Sequence record: NC_052656.1
DNA from: Escherichia phage anhysbys
Direction: 5' to 3' (one strand)
Length of the DNA stretch: 64,000 nucleotides
The notes beneath the pieces were generated by a model. That model saw nothing but the letters and a program-made list of their open reading frames with translations, was not told the origin of the DNA and did no database searches. The position numbers were made by a program, and so were the translations under genes. Of this stretch, positions 2,629 through 50,268 are shown in pieces (position 1 is the first letter of the stretch; every line of letters starts with the position of its first letter).

Positions 2629-3051
2629 ATGAAACAAGAAAATGAATCTGTAGATCACTTAATCATGCTGTCAGCCCTTTTTGCAGGATGGGACGTATTT
2701 TTTGAAAATTTGTTCAATTCTGCTACAGATGGTTCCGATTTTATGCGCCAATTTAAACGACGAACTGTTGAGGACTATACCTTCTATTCAGGTCTGATTG
2801 AAAAAGGTTACGAAGATACAAATACAACACTCACCATTAAAGTTTTAGATGTGATGTTTAGTGTTATAGATGCTATCGACGAAAGTCTTCCGATCCTAGA
2901 CAATTGTAATACGAAAGCCTATGTTTACAAAATAGCTCGTGCTTATGTGTCTGCAAACAGTTGTCTTCTTTCCACCCAGATTGCCGTGAACAATCTTGCC
3001 AACTTGTTTGATGAAGGAGAAACTTTTTATGACAATCGATTTGAAGTGTAA
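2629..3051 (+). CDS. hypothetical protein
   Basis: 140-aa ORF with aggagaggat RBS. Confidence 0.45.
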   Translation: MKQENESVDHLIMLSALFAGWDVFFENLFNSATDGSDFMRQFKRRTVEDYTFYSGLIEKGYEDTNTTLTIKVLDVMFSVIDAIDESLPILDNCNTKAYVYKIARAYVSANSCLLSTQIAVNNLANLFDEGETFYDNRFEV

Positions 3052-3394
3052 GAGGATTCTTTTAGATTTCTATAATAATTGGTTAGAACACCTCCGTCTC
3101 TTTCCAAGAGAAAGTGGTTACGCTGATGTTGGCTTATGCCGAGGTCTGCGTATGTATATAAGCGATGAATTTCGGGCAGAGCATTCTTTAGCATATTCTG
3201 TTTATGGTATGCAATTAGCCAGTTTTGAAAACGCTGGCTTAGATACAACTTTCCCATTTAACACAGCAAAATCTTTTGAGCAAGAGTGTAAGGAAAAACG
3301 TTGTATGTTTAATGAAAAACGTGTACAGTGGGTTAAGGATCGAGTTAAACAACTGGAACAAGAGTTGGATTTCTTTTATGACGAGGCAGAATAA
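3029..3394 (+). CDS. hypothetical protein, paralog family 1
   Basis: ATG 3029 after gaaggag; shares FY..WLE / GLC / KRVQWVKDRV motifs with ORFs at 191 and 4334. Confidence 0.5.
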   Translation: MTIDLKCKRILLDFYNNWLEHLRLFPRESGYADVGLCRGLRMYISDEFRAEHSLAYSVYGMQLASFENAGLDTTFPFNTAKSFEQECKEKRCMFNEKRVQWVKDRVKQLEQELDFFYDEAE

Positions 3395-3666
3395 TGGATA
3401 GACAAACCTTAAAAACAATGGCAGATGCTACTAATTCTCCGTACTTTGAAAAAGTAAGTAAATTGGTAGCTCAAGCCGCAGAGGAAGGATATTATAACAT
3501 AAACATCCACAACCCAAGTCTTATACTAGAAATGCCAAGTGATAAAAAGATACAAGAGAGTATCTGTGAAGGTATTGTTAGTTACTGGCGCGAGCGTGGG
3601 TGTGGTGCAAACATGGCTTTAGACAGTGCAAACATTGTAAGATATATAAATATTTCTTGGGGGTGA
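3394..3666 (+). CDS. hypothetical protein
   Basis: 90-aa ORF. Confidence 0.45.
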   Translation: MDRQTLKTMADATNSPYFEKVSKLVAQAAEEGYYNINIHNPSLILEMPSDKKIQESICEGIVSYWRERGCGANMALDSANIVRYINISWG

Positions 3667-3670
3667 TTTT

Positions 3671-4282
3671 ATGATTCAATGCACTCATATCCAAATTACT
3701 TGGAGAGATGAACTTTACCATTTGGGACAATTTACTGTAGGGGAAACATACCCTATCATTAAACATAATCCTAACATCGCAAACTTTGACAGGATGGTTC
3801 TTGTTGAGGACGATCTAGGTCAAACTTATTCTTTAGATCTAAAATATCCGTTTTCTTACGGCTACGATTGGATCGTTACTTTTGAAGACGCGGAGGAAAA
3901 TAAAACAATGAACGAAAAAAATTCTTGGTATTATCGTTGCGAACTGCCGCCAGTAGGTGAAAAGGTTATCTTTGTTCCCGATTTGGAAAGATATTCTTGG
4001 GATAGTTCTTATTCTGTTCCTAAAGAAGGCACCGAAGTTGAAGTTATTGCACATCGCACAACTTCGCATGGTAACGACGTAGCAGTTGTTTTCTGGGATG
4101 ATGAAGGTGCTGCTTGTGCAGGTGGCTTTGTTGCAGGTAATTTTGAACCCCTGCCAGATCCTCTGAAGGAGGCAATTTTAGGCGTAGCTTCTTTTGGACT
4201 CTCTTACACGTCTGCACAAGAGATTGTAGAAGGTATTTTAAACGGTACCGTTCCAAACGAAATTTTCAAACAGATTAAATAA
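3671..4282 (+). CDS. hypothetical protein
   Basis: 203-aa ORF. Confidence 0.5.
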   Translation: MIQCTHIQITWRDELYHLGQFTVGETYPIIKHNPNIANFDRMVLVEDDLGQTYSLDLKYPFSYGYDWIVTFEDAEENKTMNEKNSWYYRCELPPVGEKVIFVPDLERYSWDSSYSVPKEGTEVEVIAHRTTSHGNDVAVVFWDDEGAACAGGFVAGNFEPLPDPLKEAILGVASFGLSYTSAQEIVEGILNGTVPNEIFKQIK

Positions 4283-44773: not shown

Positions 44774-44848
44774 GGCCCTGTAGCTCAATGGGAGAGCTGT
44801 CGGCTCATAACCGATAGGTAGCTGGATCGAAACCAGCCAGGGCCACCA
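44774..44848 (+). tRNA. tRNA-Met (anticodon CAT)
   Basis: Manual cloverleaf: acceptor GGCCCTG/CAGGGCC, loop CTCATAA, T-arm GCTGG-ATCGAAA-CCAGC, encoded CCA. Confidence 0.8.
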
Positions 44849-44850
44849 AC

Positions 44851-44925
44851 GTCTTTATGGTGTAATGGATAGCACAGGAGTCTTCTAAACTCTTAGTCAA
44901 GGTTCGATTCCTTGTAAAGACACCA
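44851..44925 (+). tRNA. tRNA-Arg (anticodon TCT)
   Basis: Acceptor GTCTTTA/TAAAGAC, loop CTTCTAA, T-loop TTCGATT, encoded CCA. Confidence 0.8.
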
Positions 44926-45120
44926 GAACATTTTAACATGAATTAGCTCAAGTGATTTGAACCCACTACTGATCATGGTGGCAGAGAATGAGGCAAGTAT
45001 GTCAGACATTATAAACAAAGGCCACGGTTATATTAGAAGACATAAATGCTCGAAGAGCACCGTTCGTTGAGAACGGGGGTTGGTGGAGTCACCATTCATG
45101 GTAAAATGTTTTAAAAACTA

Positions 45121-45150
45121 TTGACAACTAACATTATTTTATGTTAGATT
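45121..45150 (+). promoter_or_regulatory. sigma70-like promoter (CTATTGACAA family)
   Basis: TTGACA at 45121-45126, 18-nt spacer, TAGATT. Confidence 0.4.
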
Positions 45151-45158
45151 ATAAGTAT

Positions 45159-45249
45159 GGAAGGGCAAATCGACGTGGCGACGAAAACGGTCTTGAAAAC
45201 CGCCGAGCTTGAAAGAGCCTTGGGAGTTCGACTCTCCCTCCTTCCGCCA
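45159..45249 (+). tRNA. tRNA-Ser (anticodon TGA), class II
   Basis: Acceptor GGAAGGG/TCCTTCC, loop CTTGAAA, long variable arm, T-arm GGGAG-TTCGACT-CTCCC, encoded CCA. Confidence 0.75.
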
Positions 45250-45254
45250 GATTA

Positions 45255-45340
45255 GGTAGATTGGTGAAATGGTAGCCACAACAGTTTGCTAAACTGTAGT
45301 CGGAAACGGCGTGTAGGTTCGAGTCCTACATCTACCGCCA
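45255..45340 (+). tRNA. tRNA-Ser (anticodon GCT), class II
   Basis: Acceptor GGTAGAT/ATCTACC, stem ACAGT/ACTGT with loop TTGCTAA, long variable arm, encoded CCA. Confidence 0.8.
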
Positions 45341-45470
45341 AGTTCTTTTTAATATAGCTTACTTTAATAGAGTAAACTTTCGGCAGATGGCCTCCACCAT
45401 CTTACCGATAACTCATAGTTAGTGGTGTGAACACTGGCTATTTTAAAAAGAATTTAAATATTAGTATTTA

Positions 45471-45558
45471 GGTGAGTTAATTCCGTAGGGGTAGCGGGGC
45501 AGACTGTAAATCTGTTATCATTGCGATTCGGGTGGTTCGACTCCATCACTCACCACCA
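45471..45558 (+). tRNA. tRNA-Tyr (anticodon GTA), class II
   Basis: Acceptor GGTGAGT/ACTCACC, loop CTGTAAA, long variable arm, T-arm GGTGG-TTCGACT-CCATC, encoded CCA. Confidence 0.75.
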
Positions 45559-45564
45559 AATTAA

Positions 45565-45650
45565 GATGAGTTGGCTGAATGGTTTAAGCGGCGGACTGTT
45601 AATCCGTGTTCGAAAGAACGATATAGGTTCAAATCCTATACTCATCGCCA
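45565..45650 (+). tRNA. class II tRNA with anticodon GTT (Asn-decoding by anticodon, isotype uncertain)
   Basis: Acceptor GATGAGT/ACTCATC, stem GCGGA/TCCGT with loop CTGTTAA, variable-arm hairpin GTTC-GAAA-GAAC, T-arm ATAGG-TTCAAAT-CCTAT, encoded CCA. Confidence 0.6.
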
Positions 45651-45657
45651 GAATTAT

Positions 45658-45734
45658 GGACTTGTAGAGTTAAGGTAAACCCCCAGTCGCCAAGAGGCTT
45701 CTGGAATTGCAGGTATCGAATCCTGCCGAGTCCC
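45658..45734 (+). tRNA. tRNA-like element with non-canonical anticodon arm (possible pseudo-tRNA)
   Basis: 7-bp acceptor GGACTTG/CGAGTCC and T-stem GCAGG/CCTGC with 8-nt loop TATCGAAT, but no standard 5-bp/7-nt anticodon stem-loop; no CCA. Confidence 0.3.
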
Positions 45735-45740
45735 AGCTTT

Positions 45741-45815
45741 GCTCCTATAGTATAATGGCTATTACAACGGTTTTGTAATCCGTGGATCTCTGTTCGATTC
45801 AGAGTGGGAGCACCA
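45741..45815 (+). tRNA. tRNA-Thr (anticodon TGT)
   Basis: Acceptor GCTCCTA/TGGGAGC, loop TTTGTAA, T-arm CTCTG-TTCGATT-CAGAG, encoded CCA. Confidence 0.75.
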
Positions 45816-46088
45816 ACACAACATTAAGGGCACTGTGATTGATCGTCGTATCCTGTGCACAAGGTCTGTTCGAAAGACAGTGTTCTTAGTATTGTGTTGA
45901 TCACACAAAGAGTCACCTGAAACTTGACCGGAGTAGGGTTGGATGGGGCAAAAGAAGAAGCGGCTCTCCCATCGACAGCAACGAAGAATAATATTTGACT
46001 TTGGTTTTGTATTATTTTAAGTTAGCTTACCGAACGTAGGGCTAGTCACCCAATGGGATACTCGTCACTGTCCCACTCAATAAAACTA

Positions 46089-46118
46089 TTGACAACCAAT
46101 AGTAAAATGTAGTATAGT
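46089..46118 (+). promoter_or_regulatory. sigma70-like promoter (CTATTGACAA family)
   Basis: TTGACA at 46089-46094, 18-nt spacer, TATAGT. Confidence 0.45.
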
Positions 46119-46129
46119 AAAGATGTAGG

Positions 46130-46203
46130 GCGTTCTTGGTGTAGCGGTAGCATTCCGTCCTTCCAAGTCGGCGGCACGAGTTCGATCCTCGTAGAACGCT
46201 CCA
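46130..46203 (+). tRNA. tRNA-Gly (anticodon TCC)
   Basis: Acceptor GCGTTCT/AGAACGC, loop CTTCCAA, T-arm ACGAG-TTCGATC-CTCGT, encoded CCA. Confidence 0.75.
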
Positions 46204-46301
46204 AATTATTTAATAAAGGGTTGCCAGAAAACTTTCTCTTTTACTCATGGTTTTCTCCTTCTCTCACACCTCTTCTGGTTGCCCTTCATTAAATGATTTA
46301 T

Positions 46302-46376
46302 TGGTTTGTAGTGTAGTCCGGTAGCACACGACACTTTGACTGTCGTAGGTTTGGTTCAAATCCAGACAGACCAGCC
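46302..46376 (+). tRNA. tRNA-Gln (anticodon TTG)
   Basis: U1-A72 acceptor TGGTTTG/CAGACCA with discriminator G, stem CGACA/TGTCG with loop CTTTGAC, encoded CCA. Confidence 0.8.
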
Positions 46377-46382
46377 ATATAA

Positions 46383-46459
46383 CGGAATTTAGCTCAGTTT
46401 GGTAGAGCATACGCTTTGGGAGCGTAGGGTCGCAGGTTCGAATCCTGCAATTCCGACCA
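46383..46459 (+). tRNA. tRNA-Pro (anticodon TGG)
   Basis: C1-G72 acceptor CGGAATT/AATTCCG, stem TACGC/GCGTA with loop TTTGGGA, T-loop TTCGAAT, encoded CCA. Confidence 0.8.
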
Positions 46460-46465
46460 ATCAAA

Positions 46466-46539
46466 TGTTTCGTAGTTCAATGGTAGAACCCACGACTGAT
46501 AATCGTGAGACACAAGTTCGATTCTTGTCGAAACAACCA
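46466..46539 (+). tRNA. tRNA-Ile (anticodon GAT)
   Basis: Acceptor TGTTTCG/CGAAACA, stem CACGA/TCGTG with loop CTGATAA, T-arm ACAAG-TTCGATT-CTTGT, encoded CCA. Confidence 0.75.
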
Positions 46540-46541
46540 GT

Positions 46542-46611
46542 TTCCCGTTAGACTTACAGGATAAGAGTTCCACAACTTATTGTGATGCTGGTTCGAATCC
46601 AGCACGGGATA
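46542..46611 (+). tRNA. tRNA-like element with non-canonical anticodon arm (possible pseudo-tRNA)
   Basis: Acceptor TTCCCGT/ACGGGAT (1-72 mismatch) and canonical T-arm GCTGG-TTCGAAT-CCAGC, but middle folds only as CACAA-CTTA-TTGTG; no CCA. Confidence 0.3.
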
Positions 46612-46617
46612 CATAAT

Positions 46618-46696
46618 AGCGGGATAGAGGAGTCTGGTCGTCCTCGCCAGTTTCATATGCTGGAGATCATCGGTTCAAATCCGATTCCCGCCTCCA
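46618..46696 (+). tRNA. tRNA-Met (anticodon CAT), second copy, initiator/Ile2 not excluded
   Basis: Acceptor AGCGGGA/TCCCGCC with A1.C72 mismatch, stem CCAGT/GCTGG with loop TTCATAT, T-arm ATCGG-TTCAAAT-CCGAT, encoded CCA. Confidence 0.65.
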
Positions 46697-47511: not shown

Positions 47512-47578
47512 CAACGCCCCTTCTCTTCCTAAAATAAAATTTTATGAGGAAGTAGAAGATAATGAATCTAAAGACTAA
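47441..47578 (+). CDS. hypothetical small protein (45 aa), overlapping in another frame
   Basis: ATG 47441 preceded by GGAGGAAG; lies inside ORF-track entry 47363..47578. Confidence 0.35.
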   Translation: MMTEKTWEEILAEAQPMEVKKIVNNAPSLPKIKFYEEVEDNESKD

Positions 47579-47948
47579 AACTGTATTAAGTTTTGTTTTA
47601 ATTGTTATTCTTGCAGGAATGTTTGCTTATAACAAGATACGTGAGTCTGGCTACAAAGATGGTGTTGCCTATCAAACACAAGTATATCAAGCAGCCCAAG
47701 CAAAAGCAAAACAAGATTTTGATGTTCTTCAAAAAAGAGCAGATGAAGAAAGAGCATTATTAAATACTCAAATAAACAACTTGTCTAAAAACAATGCACA
47801 ATTAAAAGCAGATTTAGAGAAGAAGAAACAAACGATCAATGAGGATACAACGAATTATGCAAAAACTAATTCTGGCAGTATGTCTTGCTTTGCCCCTAAT
47901 GATGACGGGTTGTTCATCATCAACAAAAGTTTCCCCAGTTCTTATTGA
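47562..47948 (+). CDS. i-spanin (Rz-like)
   Basis: N-terminal TM segment TVLSFVLIVILAGMFAY followed by coiled-coil periplasmic domain; o-spanin gene embedded at its 3' end. Confidence 0.6.
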   Translation: MNLKTKTVLSFVLIVILAGMFAYNKIRESGYKDGVAYQTQVYQAAQAKAKQDFDVLQKRADEERALLNTQINNLSKNNAQLKADLEKKKQTINEDTTNYAKTNSGSMSCFAPNDDGLFIINKSFPSSY

Positions 47949-48183
47949 TGAGTGTAAGGCTGTAGCCATAGAAAAGGTTAAAGGTCCAGATTCGGACTTG
48001 ATGGATAAAGTATCGACACCTGTGCCATACACTAAAAATCAAATTGCAAAAGGGGTTAGTAGATCTGAAGTTGTTAACAACCAAACTCAAAACAATGCTC
48101 TTTGGGAGCAAGATAGACGAAAGGTTCTAGGTTTACAAACATATATTAAAACACTGCAAGAAAAAGGTATTATTGCTGAATAA
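47839..48183 (+). CDS. o-spanin (Rz1-like outer-membrane lipoprotein)
   Basis: Lipobox LALPLMMTGC; starts inside the i-spanin gene in a different frame and extends beyond it. Confidence 0.55.
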   Translation: MRIQRIMQKLILAVCLALPLMMTGCSSSTKVSPVLIDECKAVAIEKVKGPDSDLMDKVSTPVPYTKNQIAKGVSRSEVVNNQTQNNALWEQDRRKVLGLQTYIKTLQEKGIIAE

Positions 48184-48192
48184 GGAGGGAAT

Positions 48193-50268
48193 GTGGCAAA
48201 GAAAAAGGCAGCAGGTAGTTTAGCTGGAGTAGATATTGAAGTAAAGGCTCAACCAGGTAAACAGACTCTTGCAATGGATTTAATGCCAGAAGTTATGATT
48301 TATGGTGGTGCCGCTGGATGTGTTTCTGCTGAAACGGAATATCTTACAAAAGATGGTTGGAGGCAGATTAGTGAATATTCGGGAGAGGATATTTACCAAT
48401 ATAATCCTAAGAATAAGCGTTTAGAATTGGTAACACCTTATTTTGTAGAATACGATTTAAATGGAGATAACCTATACAGAATAACAAATGGTGTAGGATT
48501 ATTCCAAGAACTTAGTATGGAACACCGTTTTGTATTCTATAAGAAAAAGAAATCAAAGAAACATTTCGAGATTCTTGTAGGAGATCTTATTGCATTACAG
48601 CAAATAGGAAAACCCCTGCAAGGTTATGTAGAAAATCCATTCGGTAAACGTGTTCCTTTTAACATACCTGGTAAAAAGAGCACTTACTTAAAAATACACG
48701 AGGTTATTTCAACAGATGATAAGAAATATTGTTTTGAGACTCCAAGCAGCTATATTGTCTTTAGACGTGGCGATCACTGCTTCGTTACTGGGAATAGCGG
48801 CAAGTCTCGTCTGCTATTGCTGAAAGCTTTAAAATACGCCTACAAAGACCCTTTGTTTGGTGGAATACTTTTCCGTAAGAACACCACTGCTCACCGTAAA
48901 CCAGGTGGTCTGTTTACAGAAGCAAAACGTTTGTATCTTCCTTTACAACCACACGTAAAAGAAAGTACAATGGATATCATTTTTGAAGCCACTGGTGGTG
49001 GAACCCTCAAATTTGACCATTTGGAAAATGATAACGTAACAGCAGAAACAAACCATCAGGGTACCCAGTATTCAATGGTAGGTTTTGACGAGTTAACCCA
49101 CTTCACACAATATGAAATGCTATATCTTCTGGGACGTATGCGTTCAGAGTCAGAAACAAGTTTCATGTTGTGCACATGTAACCCTGACGCAGATAGTTGG
49201 GTTTTGAATTGGGTGTTACCTTATCTTGATGAGGGTGGTTATCCTAGAGAAGATATGTGTGGTAAACAAAAATATTTCATCATTGTTAACGATGAACCTG
49301 TTTTTGCTGACACACCTGAAGAACTGAAAGAAAAATATCCAGAAAACTGTTTCATGGAAAACCCTAATACAGGGGAGACAGTTGTTATTGAACCACAAAC
49401 TTTCGTATTTATTGGTGGGACAATATTTGATAACCCAGAACTCATTAGGCTTAACCCTAATTACTTAGCACAGCTTAAATCACAAACAGCGATCAAAAGA
49501 GCACAGCTTCTGGACGGTTGTTGGTTTGCACGTATCCAGAAAGAATCTTTCTTTCAACGTGAATGGTTACATAAAATATCTTATAAAGATGTTCCTAACA
49601 ATCTTAAACTAATGCGAGCATGGGATAAAGCTGTTTCAGTTCCTACAGAAACTTACCGTTATCCAGACTATACAACATCTGTCAAAATGGGTAAAGATCA
49701 AGATGGTAATATCTACATCTTTGGCGACTATGATTATGATGCTGTGGATGAGAAAAGTAAAATTTTCGGAAGGTTTCGAAGACTACCTGGGGAAAGGGAT
49801 AACCTGATTCTAAATCAATGTAAGATTGATGGACCAGAAGTTACAGTAGTGCTTCCTAAAGACCCATCTGGTGCTGGGACAATAGAATACACAGAGTCTG
49901 CAAAGAAACTTATTCTAGAAGGTTTTGTTGTTAAACCAGATGCTATGCCAGGTAACAAGAAAAAGCTTCAGCGTTTTATGCCTTTTAGTAGTGCGTGTCA
50001 AAACGGTTTTGTTTATATTGTTGAAGATTCTTTCCCTAATGTGGAAACTTTAACCCACTTTTATAAAGAATTGGAATCTTTCAATGGTGAAAGATCTACA
50101 GCCACTATTAAAGATGACATTCCCGATGCTGCTGCCTCTTGTTTTAATACTCTGTCAAAAGAGAATACTTTCAAAGCAGTAGCTATCCCTACAACAACAA
50201 ATGCTCCTACAGGATACAGTAGAATGAACAGCGGATTTCACCAGCCGTATAGTGTCCGTAAAAGATAA
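48193..50268 (+). CDS. terminase large subunit (intein-containing)
   Basis: Walker A GAAG|SGKS split by the insertion, Walker B MVGFDELTH, C-terminal nuclease-size domain; GTG start after AAGGAGGG. Confidence 0.8.
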   Translation: MAKKKAAGSLAGVDIEVKAQPGKQTLAMDLMPEVMIYGGAAGCVSAETEYLTKDGWRQISEYSGEDIYQYNPKNKRLELVTPYFVEYDLNGDNLYRITNGVGLFQELSMEHRFVFYKKKKSKKHFEILVGDLIALQQIGKPLQGYVENPFGKRVPFNIPGKKSTYLKIHEVISTDDKKYCFETPSSYIVFRRGDHCFVTGNSGKSRLLLLKALKYAYKDPLFGGILFRKNTTAHRKPGGLFTEAKRLYLPLQPHVKESTMDIIFEATGGGTLKFDHLENDNVTAETNHQGTQYSMVGFDELTHFTQYEMLYLLGRMRSESETSFMLCTCNPDADSWVLNWVLPYLDEGGYPREDMCGKQKYFIIVNDEPVFADTPEELKEKYPENCFMENPNTGETVVIEPQTFVFIGGTIFDNPELIRLNPNYLAQLKSQTAIKRAQLLDGCWFARIQKESFFQREWLHKISYKDVPNNLKLMRAWDKAVSVPTETYRYPDYTTSVKMGKDQDGNIYIFGDYDYDAVDEKSKIFGRFRRLPGERDNLILNQCKIDGPEVTVVLPKDPSGAGTIEYTESAKKLILEGFVVKPDAMPGNKKKLQRFMPFSSACQNGFVYIVEDSFPNVETLTHFYKELESFNGERSTATIKDDIPDAAASCFNTLSKENTFKAVAIPTTTNAPTGYSRMNSGFHQPYSVRKR
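48319..48795 (+). mobile_element. putative mini-intein (159 aa) in the terminase P-loop
   Basis: Insertion begins with Cys and ends ...FVTGN immediately before Ser; excising it restores GAAGSGKS; too short to carry a homing endonuclease domain. Confidence 0.6.

What the first reader, a model, noticed from the sequence alone, without database searches (positions are those of the whole stretch)
48319..48795. Apparent mini-intein splitting the terminase large-subunit Walker A motif
The terminase reads ...IYGGAAG, then a 159-residue insertion starting with Cys and ending ...FVTGN, then SGKSRLL. Removing exactly that insertion gives GAAGSGKS, a canonical Walker A box. The terminase P-loop is a known intein site, but the C-terminal junction here is G-N rather than the usual H-N, so it may be an atypical or inactive intein. 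It is too small to include a homing endonuclease domain.
Basis: partly seen in the sequence, partly recalled or inferred. Interest (0 to 1): 0.6.

Follow-up and report, generated by a model that had tools for sequence, protein, structure and literature searches.

The report
Unannotated mini-intein in phage terminase
The DNA-packaging enzyme of this phAPEC8-like E. coli phage carries a genuine 159-residue self-splicing protein insert (mini-intein) inside its ATP-binding loop; its odd Gly-Asn ending is a conserved trait of a large, poorly catalogued phage intein family, not a sign of decay.

Summary
The 691-aa terminase large subunit (TerL, 48193..50268 +) reads IYGGAAG | C…FVTGN (159 aa, 48319..48795) | SGKSRLL. 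Intein-free homologues read IYGGAAGSGKSRL without a break.

The Gly-Asn end is a family trait. All 37 TerL inserts end [T/S]GN|S, as do most of 192 related inteins. AceL NrdHF ends TGN|S, splices efficiently, and is inactivated by Gly→His.

The intein occurs in at least 134 cultured Stephanstirmvirinae genomes, including phAPEC8 and phi92. It evolves under purifying selection like its host protein, and no record inspected annotates it.

One unusual point is that it combines the class-1 nucleophile Cys1 with the class-3 signature residues Cys at block F:4 and Thr at G:5. The splicing route therefore cannot be assigned from sequence.

Verdict: a real and probably active intein, a new member of a known kind, of moderate interest.

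The parts
48193..50268 (+). TerL precursor ORF: 691 aa, about 78.7 kDa, GTG start, stop at 50266-50268. Spliced product: 532 aa, about 60.1 kDa.
   Evidence: Pfam Terminase_6N and PHROG phrog_979 'terminase large subunit'. 99.8% nt identity to annotated TerL genes of Phapecoctavirus phages.
48183..48188 (+). Shine-Dalgarno-like AGGAGG, 4 nt upstream of the GTG start.
   Evidence: Read directly from the sequence. The same CDS start is used in RefSeq NC_052661.
48193..48318 (+). N-extein, aa 1-42, ending in the first half of Walker A (G39-A-A-G42, nt 48307-48318).
   Evidence: Aligns with the N-termini of intein-free homologues.
48319..48795 (+). Mini-intein: 159 aa, about 18.6 kDa, HINT fold, no homing endonuclease domain.
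48319..48321 (+). Block A Cys1 (TGT), the N-terminal splice-junction nucleophile.
   Evidence: Invariant in all 25 aligned TerL inteins. Cys in 201 of 204 family N-termini.
48514..48528 (+). Block B: Ser66(B:7)-Met-Glu-His69(B:10)-Arg70(B:11), followed by Phe71(B:12).
   Evidence: His is invariant. Ser/Thr at B:7 in 180 of 192 and Arg at B:11 in 105 of 192. These correspond to S65, H68 and R69 of AceL NrdHF, where R69 helps compensate for the missing penultimate His (PMC7891396).
48730..48732 (+). Block F:4 Cys138 (TGT) within the KYCF motif, at the position of the class-3 branch-point cysteine.
   Evidence: Invariant in A1. Cys in 192 of 199 family C-terminal segments. Equivalent to C124 of AceL NrdHF, the experimentally shown first nucleophile (PMC7891396).
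48787..48795 (+). Block G end: Thr157(G:5)-Gly158(G:6)-Asn159(G:7). Asn is the residue that cyclises to cut the C-terminal junction.
   Evidence: All 37 TerL inserts end [T/S]GN. Among 192 family inteins, 147 end TGN and 25 end SGN. AceL NrdHF ends T144-G145-N146 (PMC7891396).
48796..48807 (+). Ser+1 (AGC) and the rest of Walker A (S202-G-K-S205), at the start of the C-extein.
   Evidence: The +1 residue is Ser in 95, Cys in 66 and Thr in 31 of 192 family inteins.
48796..50265 (+). C-extein, aa 202-691: the remainder of the ATPase domain plus the nuclease domain.
   Evidence: Terminase_6N and Terminase_6C matches on the in-silico spliced protein.

Best explanation
The 159-residue insert is an active, cis-splicing mini-intein. 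It is translated as part of a 78.7-kDa TerL precursor. It folds into a HINT domain, cuts itself out, and joins Gly42 to Ser202. This recreates the Walker A loop GAAGSGKS and yields a functional 60-kDa terminase plus a free 18.6-kDa intein.

Proposed chemistry (inferred, not shown):
- Ser66 and His69 (block B) strain the N-terminal scissile bond.
- Cys1 makes the initial N-to-S acyl shift.
- The acyl group ends up on Ser+1 as a branched ester. It gets there either directly or via the invariant block-F Cys138, which lies at the position of the class-3 nucleophile.
- Thr157 positions His69.
- Asn159 cyclises without a penultimate His, probably helped by Arg70 as in AceL NrdHF.
- An O-to-N shift then completes the peptide bond.

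The element descends from a LAGLIDADG-endonuclease-bearing intein that targets the G|[S/T/C]GK[S/T] site of P-loop ATPases. It has lost the endonuclease and is now fixed and vertically inherited in Stephanstirmvirinae phages.
For: Shown:
- Exact in-frame interruption of Walker A, with intein-free alleles that have the motif intact.
- The in-silico spliced protein restores the full Terminase_6N match.
- A family profile hits the solved intein 6ZGQ at E=8e-12; weaker hits include other inteins and BIL domains among unrelated proteins.
- Cys1, His69, Cys138, Gly158 and Asn159 are invariant across TerL inteins that are only 24-39% identical overall.
- Relatives at the same site have 300-328-aa inserts with weak LAGLIDADG_3 matches. 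Family members elsewhere have significant matches.
- Intein identity tracks extein identity within the clade. dN/dS is 0.05-0.07 for the intein and 0.03-0.07 for the extein.
- The intein is present in at least 134 genomes of cultured, viable phages.

From the literature:
- AceL NrdHF has the same SxxHR, Cys F:4 and TGN|S features and splices with a half-time of about 4 min. G145H kills it and R69A slows it (PMC7891396).
- A penultimate Gly is functional in the Bethlehem gp51 intein (PMC5050341).
Against: - No experiment shows splicing of this protein.
- Single-sequence Pfam and NCBIfam scans see no Hint domain.
- The penultimate His and the block-F His are both absent.
- The order in which Cys1 and Cys138 are used cannot be read from sequence.
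- dS is saturated (1.6-3.5), so the omega values are rough.
Confidence: 0.85

Rival explanations
1. The element is an active intein that splices by the class-3 route. Cys138 (block F:4) attacks the N-terminal junction first and forms a block-F branched thioester, which is then passed to Ser+1. Cys1 is dispensable or only auxiliary.
For: - The closest solved and closest sequence relative is a proven class-3 intein with the same S-x-x-H-R, Cys F:4 and T-G-N|S residues (PMC7891396).
- Cys F:4 is present in 192 of 199 family C-terminal segments, and Thr or Ser at G:5 in most.
- Family members with Lys1, Ala1 or Pro1 all keep Cys F:4, and one of them is a TerL P-loop intein (P0192).
- Three of 37 WCT inteins also have Ser1 or Cys1 (PMC2807308).
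- A later summary states that class-3 inteins do not require an N-terminal nucleophile (PMC5222942).
Against: - Cys1 is conserved in 201 of 204 family N-termini. That is hard to explain if it is dispensable, because typical class-3 inteins have Ala, Pro or similar at position 1.
- Trp at B:12 is absent; this intein has Phe71, and the family has V/I/M/F/L.
- Six family inteins have Cys1 without Cys F:4, so Cys1 alone can apparently suffice.
Confidence: 0.25
2. The insert is a decayed intein or an ordinary inserted domain that no longer splices and stays in the mature terminase.
For: There is no penultimate His, no block-F His, no endonuclease and no Pfam Hint match. The element is fixed rather than sporadic within the clade.
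Against: - A 159-residue domain between the fourth and fifth residues of GxxxxGK[ST] should abolish nucleotide binding in an essential enzyme, yet these phages are viable.
- Every splicing residue (C1, S/T-x-x-H, N, S+1) is conserved across 24-39%-identical relatives.
- dN/dS is about 0.05-0.07.
- The GN ending is the active state in the characterised relative (PMC7891396).
Confidence: 0.04
3. The intein splices only conditionally and acts as a regulator. For example, a Cys1-Cys138 (or Cys154) disulfide or another redox or temperature cue could hold TerL as an inactive precursor until late infection.
For: - Two invariant cysteines sit in or near the active site, and a third (Cys154) is present in this phage.
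- Disulfide-bonded precursor conformers and redox-sensitive splicing are reported for other phage and mycobacterial inteins (PMC5050341, PMC6195587).
- Fixation of an endonuclease-less intein invites an adaptive explanation.
Against: - There is no direct evidence.
- Fixation is equally explained by the difficulty of precisely deleting an intein from an essential motif.
- AceL NrdHF splices fast and constitutively over wide conditions (PMC7891396).
- Cys154 is not conserved within the clade.
Confidence: 0.08

Closest known systems
AceL NrdHF intein (PDB 6ZGQ; Hoffmann et al. 2020, PMC7891396)
   Different: AceL NrdHF starts with Ala1, making it an obligate class-3 intein. It is naturally split with a free-standing GIY-YIG endonuclease gene between the halves, and it sits in the RNR small subunit at RDE|S. 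The window's intein starts with Cys1, is contiguous, and sits in the TerL P-loop. Sequence similarity is detectable only in the N-terminal half (profile positions 6-85).
Mycobacteriophage TerL inteins (Kelley et al. 2016, PMC5050341; Gosselin et al. 2025 bioRxiv 10.1101/2025.01.02.630785)
   Same: These are inteins in the ATPase domain of phage terminase large subunits, and the P-loop is the commonest site. Class 1 and class 3 inteins both occur. The penultimate His is often replaced, by Gly among others, without loss of splicing.
   Different: Their P-loop sites (TerL1-a and -b) lie at or next to GK|T in Terminase_1 proteins. The Terminase_6-like TerL inteins described there sit in the C-motif. 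Here the host is a Terminase_6N protein of an enterobacterial myophage and the site is G|SGKS, three residues upstream of the classic site. Most actinophage inteins keep a LAGLIDADG domain, whereas this one has none.
Canonical class-3 (WCT) inteins, e.g. MP-Be DnaB, Msm/Mch DnaB-1 (PMC2807308, PMC7664689)
   Same: They share Cys at F:4 and Thr at G:5, insertion in the P-loops of helicase-like ATPases, a proposed phage origin, and Ser/Thr at +1.
   Different: Those inteins lack an N-terminal nucleophile, carry Trp at B:12 and usually keep the penultimate His. This intein has Cys1, Phe at B:12 and Gly at G:6.

Membership tests
Intein (protein-splicing HINT domain) | Hedgehog/INTein fold | tested here: met
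Intein (protein-splicing HINT domain) | In-frame insertion in a conserved site of a host protein, with intein-free homologues that are contiguous across the site | tested here: met
   Homologues read IYGGAAG|SGKSRL without a break. Terminase_6N coverage is restored after in-silico splicing.
Intein (protein-splicing HINT domain) | Splice-junction residues: Cys/Ser at position 1, block B (T/S)xxH, C-terminal Asn, and Cys/Ser/Thr at +1 | tested here: met
   Cys1, Ser66-x-x-His69, Asn159 and Ser+1 are present. They are invariant or nearly so in the family.
Intein (protein-splicing HINT domain) | Penultimate His (G:6). This is common but not obligatory. | tested here: not met
   Gly158 occupies this position. 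Gly is the family consensus, with TGN or SGN in 172 of 192. Functional inteins with a penultimate Gly are documented (PMC7891396, PMC5050341), so this does not exclude membership.
Intein (protein-splicing HINT domain) | Demonstrated excision and extein ligation | not testable with these tools
   This needs expression with SDS-PAGE or LC-MS. Expected masses are 78.7 kDa going to 60.1 plus 18.6 kDa.
Mini-intein (no homing endonuclease) | Splicing domain only, with no LAGLIDADG, HNH or other endonuclease in frame, out of frame or antisense | tested here: met
   The insert is 159 aa with no Pfam endonuclease hit. No ORF of 60 aa or more lies in other frames across 48319-48795. The model is a single compact HINT domain. 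Relatives with 300-328 aa carry the LAGLIDADG-like insert between blocks B and F.
Class 3 inteins (WCT) | No Cys/Ser/Thr nucleophile at position 1 | tested here: not met
   Cys1 is present here and in 201 of 204 family N-termini.
Class 3 inteins (WCT) | Cys at block F:4 | tested here: met
   Cys138 is in KYCF, 21 residues before Asn159. This position is Cys in 192 of 199 family segments.
Class 3 inteins (WCT) | Trp at block B:12 | tested here: not met
   Phe71 occupies this position. The family has V/I/M/F/L, with Trp in only 2 of 192. AceL NrdHF, a proven class-3 intein, also lacks it (Met70).
Class 3 inteins (WCT) | Thr at block G:5 | tested here: met
   Thr157 is present. In the family, 147 end TGN and 25 end SGN of 192.
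Class 3 inteins (WCT) | Block-F branched thioester intermediate | not testable with these tools
   This requires mutant and trapping biochemistry.
Bacterial intein-like (BIL) domains | HINT domain lacking the +1 nucleophile, located in variable or secreted proteins, giving mainly cleavage | tested here: not met

The most novel reading that the evidence does not exclude
This intein belongs to a very large, mostly phage-borne family that Pfam does not detect. About 95% of sampled members carry both the class-1 nucleophile (Cys1) and the class-3 nucleophile (Cys F:4), together with Thr G:5 and a Gly-Asn end. Occasional members have lost one cysteine or the other, and none of the 192 examined has lost both. 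At a single NrdF site (RDE|), homologous inteins are either Ala1 with Cys F:4 or Cys1 with Gly F:4.

The family may therefore be a living intermediate between class 1 and class 3. It could use a thioester relay (Cys1 to Cys F:4 to Ser+1), or it could have two redundant initiating nucleophiles. [quoted passage not shown] The phAPEC8/phi92 TerL intein would be a genetically tractable E. coli phage model to test the idea.
Probability: 0.25. Interest if true: 0.65.

Novelty: new member of a known kind. Interest (0 to 1): 0.4.

Why it matters
Three practical points:
- TerL of phAPEC8- and phi92-like phages is widely used as a phylogenetic marker, and these phages are candidates for phage therapy. 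More than 130 deposited genomes give TerL as a 691-694-aa protein without noting that about 23% of it is removed after translation. PHROG family profiles for TerL and PhoH have absorbed the intein sequence.
- Standard domain libraries miss this intein family, although a profile finds about 2,000 representative clusters at E<=1e-10. Intein censuses that rely on Pfam or TIGRFAM models probably under-count phage inteins.
- A small, contiguous Cys1/Ser+1 intein related to the fast, robust AceL NrdHF intein could be useful as a protein-ligation tool.

Scientifically, the co-occurrence of both candidate initiating cysteines makes the class-1 to class-3 transition directly testable by a handful of point mutants in an E. 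coli system.

Tried and rejected
- **Single-sequence scans.** Pfam, NCBIfam and PDB phmmer scans of the insert gave no intein hit. The top PDB hit, a portal protein at E=0.05, was dismissed as noise. Single-sequence scans are simply too insensitive for this family.
- **Pfam on larger relatives.** Only weak LAGLIDADG_3 matches appeared (E about 0.01, below the gathering score). These were accepted as supportive only because other family members give significant LAGLIDADG_3 hits.
- **Other copies in the window.** A six-frame search of the window with the family profile found none.
- **Out-of-frame or antisense endonuclease ORF inside the intein.** None was found.
- **Group I intron or other RNA-level element.** Rejected, because the insert is in frame, protein-coding under purifying selection, and folds as a HINT domain.
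- **Base composition.** Intein GC is 34.2% against 38.4% for the C-extein, with GC3 of 26% against 28%. The difference is too small to indicate recent acquisition.
- **Covariation between loss of Cys1 and loss of Cys F:4.** No double losses were seen in 192 inteins, but only about 0.1 would be expected by chance, so this is not significant.
- **Literature searches.** Searches for an intein in phAPEC8 or Phapecoctavirus phages, or in Escherichia phage terminases, found nothing specific. Tori & Perler 2011 (PMC3133030) could not be read.
- **Active-site geometry.** Model coordinates are not exposed, so Cys1-Cys138 and Arg70-Asn159 distances could not be measured.

Full report
**1. The observation**

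The window encodes a 691-aa ORF at 48193..50268 on the + strand. It has a GTG start, preceded by AGGAGG at 48183-48188. Pfam, NCBIfam and PHROGs identify it as a terminase large subunit (TerL) of the Terminase_6N type. The protein reads …MIYGGAAG(42) | C(43)VSAETEYL…HCFVTGN(201) | S(202)GKSRLLLLKAL…. Removing it produces G-A-A-G-S-G-K-S, a canonical GxxxxGK[ST] Walker A loop.

**2. It is an insertion, not ordinary terminase sequence**

A search of 5.8 billion proteins returned four length classes of homologues:
- about 505-520 aa, with IYGGAAGSGKSRL contiguous (for example P0019-P0021, 62-63% identical to the in-silico spliced protein);
- 690-700 aa, with a 158-159-aa insert (the phAPEC8-like clade);
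- 656-672 aa, with a 146-149-aa insert (including Vibrio phage PWH3a-P1);
- 746-849 aa, with 246-328-aa inserts.

All inserts sit at the identical position. All begin with Cys, and all end [T/S]-G-N followed by SGKS.

One intein-free allele (P0020) lies in a 130-141-kb phage contig with the same TerL-portal gene order. Its empty site matches the window's joined flanks at 40 of 60 nt.

After in-silico splicing, the Terminase_6N match extends to profile position 1 and gains 7 bits.

**3. The insert is a HINT-fold intein**

Single-sequence scans against Pfam, NCBIfam and PDB found nothing. A profile of 25 homologous inserts (alignment A1) hit the AceL NrdHF intein (PDB 6ZGQ) at E=8e-12. Weaker hits included other inteins and BIL domains among unrelated proteins.

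AlphaFold2 on A1 gave a confident all-beta model with pLDDT 88.2 and pTM 0.81. The only low-confidence stretch is residues 71-80, the loop where relatives carry their endonuclease.

The long inserts of relatives carry weak LAGLIDADG_3 matches and visible LAGLIDADG-like motifs between blocks B and F. Other family members have significant LAGLIDADG_3 hits. The window's element is therefore a mini-intein derived from an endonuclease-bearing mobile intein. No alternative-frame or antisense ORF of 60 aa or more lies inside it.

**4. The Gly-Asn junction**

All 37 TerL inserts end [T/S]GN|S.

A profile search of 1.84 billion cluster representatives found 9,727 proteins at E<=1e-3 and 2,058 at E<=1e-10. 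From the best 148 of these I could pair 192 inteins. Of those, 147 end TGN and 25 end SGN. The +1 residue is Ser in 95, Cys in 66 and Thr in 31.

The characterised relative AceL NrdHF ends T144-G145-N146|S and splices to completion with a half-time of about 4 min. The G145H mutation inactivates it. Arg69 at block B:11 contacts the C-scissile carbonyl and partly replaces the missing His (PMC7891396). The window's intein has the same S66-x-x-H69-R70 and T157-G158-N159|S. It also lacks a family-conserved His in block F.

Independently, Kelley et al. showed that a mycobacteriophage class-1 intein with a penultimate Gly splices completely. Its G316H mutant needed more than 5 h to reach about 50% splicing (PMC5050341).

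**5. Evidence that it is maintained as a functioning protein**

The window is 99.8% identical in TerL to Phapecoctavirus genomes (phAPEC8-like E. coli myophages of about 150 kb). tblastn finds the intein in at least 134 phage records. These include phAPEC8, ESCO5/13, phi92 and other Justusliebigvirus (86.8% identity), and Klebsiella, Citrobacter and Serratia relatives.

Within the clade, intein identity (53-99%) tracks extein identity (67-100%). Against phi92 and Citrobacter phage Tr1, dN/dS is 0.05-0.07 for the intein and 0.03-0.07 for the extein. dS is saturated, so these values are approximate.

Splitting the P-loop of an essential ATPase would be lethal without excision. Together with the invariance of Cys1, His69, Asn159 and Ser+1, this argues strongly that the intein splices. 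Splicing itself has not been demonstrated.

**6. Which splicing mechanism?**

The intein has the class-1 hallmark, Cys1. It also has two of the three class-3 WCT positions: Cys138 at F:4 and Thr157 at G:5. Position B:12 is Phe rather than Trp.

Counts in the wider family:
- both Cys1 and Cys F:4 are present in 183 of 192 inteins;
- six have Cys1 without Cys F:4;
- three have Lys1, Ala1 or Pro1 with Cys F:4;
- none lacks both, but only about 0.1 double losses would be expected by chance, so this is not significant.

At the NrdF RDE| site, homologous family inteins are either Ala1 with Cys F:4 (P0165, the AceL NrdHF type) or Cys1 with Gly F:4 (P0150 second intein, P0199).

The literature records some precedent. 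Cys is the second most common residue at F:4 (PMC4031507). Three of 37 WCT inteins have Ser1 or Cys1 (PMC2807308). A later summary states that class-3 inteins do not require an N-terminal nucleophile (PMC5222942).

My probability estimates for this intein are:
- a Cys1-initiated pathway, with Cys138 as helper or relay: about 0.6;
- a purely class-3 route: about 0.25;
- inactivity: less than 0.05.

Only mutagenesis can decide.

**7. Comparison with known systems and novelty**

Inteins in phage TerL ATPase domains, and P-loop insertion sites, are well known (PMC5050341; bioRxiv 10.1101/2025.01.02.630785). So are mini-inteins and non-His penultimate residues.

Four things appear to be new here:
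- **The host group.** These are enterobacterial Stephanstirmvirinae, in which no deposited record I inspected annotates the intein. I found no paper mentioning it.
- **The exact site.** It is G|SGKS, three residues upstream of the classic GK|T site. This is the commonest site for the family across TerL, PhoH, RecD-like and DnaB-like ATPases.
- **The size of the family.** It is large and invisible to Pfam and NCBIfam.
- **The residue combination.** Cys1 plus Cys F:4 plus T-G-N.

I rate this a new member of a known kind and of moderate interest.

**8. Caveats**

- No biochemical data exist for this protein.
- Model coordinates could not be inspected.
- The family statistics come from the 148 best representatives only.
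- The open-access literature search cannot exclude an earlier mention elsewhere.

Noticed in passing
window 44774-46696 (+): A cluster of 10 tRNA genes (Met, Arg, Ser, Asn, Thr, Gly, Gln, Pro, Ile, Met) lies about 1.5 kb upstream of TerL. The same arrangement is annotated in Escherichia phage ukendt and phi92.
   Followed up: partly
window 47562-47948 and 47839-48183 (+): Two overlapping ORFs lie directly upstream of TerL. The first (128 aa) has an N-terminal hydrophobic segment and is annotated as an Rz-like spanin in relatives. The second (114 aa) starts in a different frame inside it and has a lipobox-like LPLMMTGC, which suggests an overlapped Rz/Rz1-type spanin pair. RefSeq labels the second only as hypothetical.
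   Followed up: no
L004 (Klebsiella phage FKP3, PP895363.1) 2738-4143: In this relative the intein-containing TerL gene is additionally interrupted further downstream by about 1.4 kb that carries an HNH endonuclease ORF. TerL is annotated there as two CDSs. This may be a group I intron or a free-standing homing-endonuclease insertion, so the same gene would carry two different selfish elements. The truncated 412-aa cluster P0017 may reflect the same structure.
   Followed up: no
PHROG families phrog_979 and phrog_32482: The intein alone matches the 'terminase large subunit' PHROG at E=1e-27 and a 'PhoH-like' PHROG at E=1e-11. Both family profiles have absorbed intein sequence. Intein-containing proteins of unrelated function could therefore be cross-annotated as TerL or PhoH.
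   Followed up: partly
P0122, P0145, P0162 and other representatives: Some metagenomic proteins of 2,200-2,600 aa carry several inteins of this same family in one polypeptide. P0122 has four paired TGN/xGN ends, and there are up to 8 profile stretches per protein. Their extein junctions (for example SGYQCH and SAQVGV) were not identified.
   Followed up: no
L005 1-899 and L006 189-1448: The intein-free relative contigs carry an IS605-family OrfB/TnpB (Cas12f1-like) gene a few kb upstream of TerL.
   Followed up: no
window 48568-48600 (intein residues about 84-97, VGDLIALQQIGKPL): This stretch, a predicted helix at residues 87-95, aligns with the first LAGLIDADG-like motif (GELRLQVAVMADG) of endonuclease-bearing relatives. 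It may be a vestige of the lost endonuclease. The alignment is weak and gapped.
   Followed up: partly
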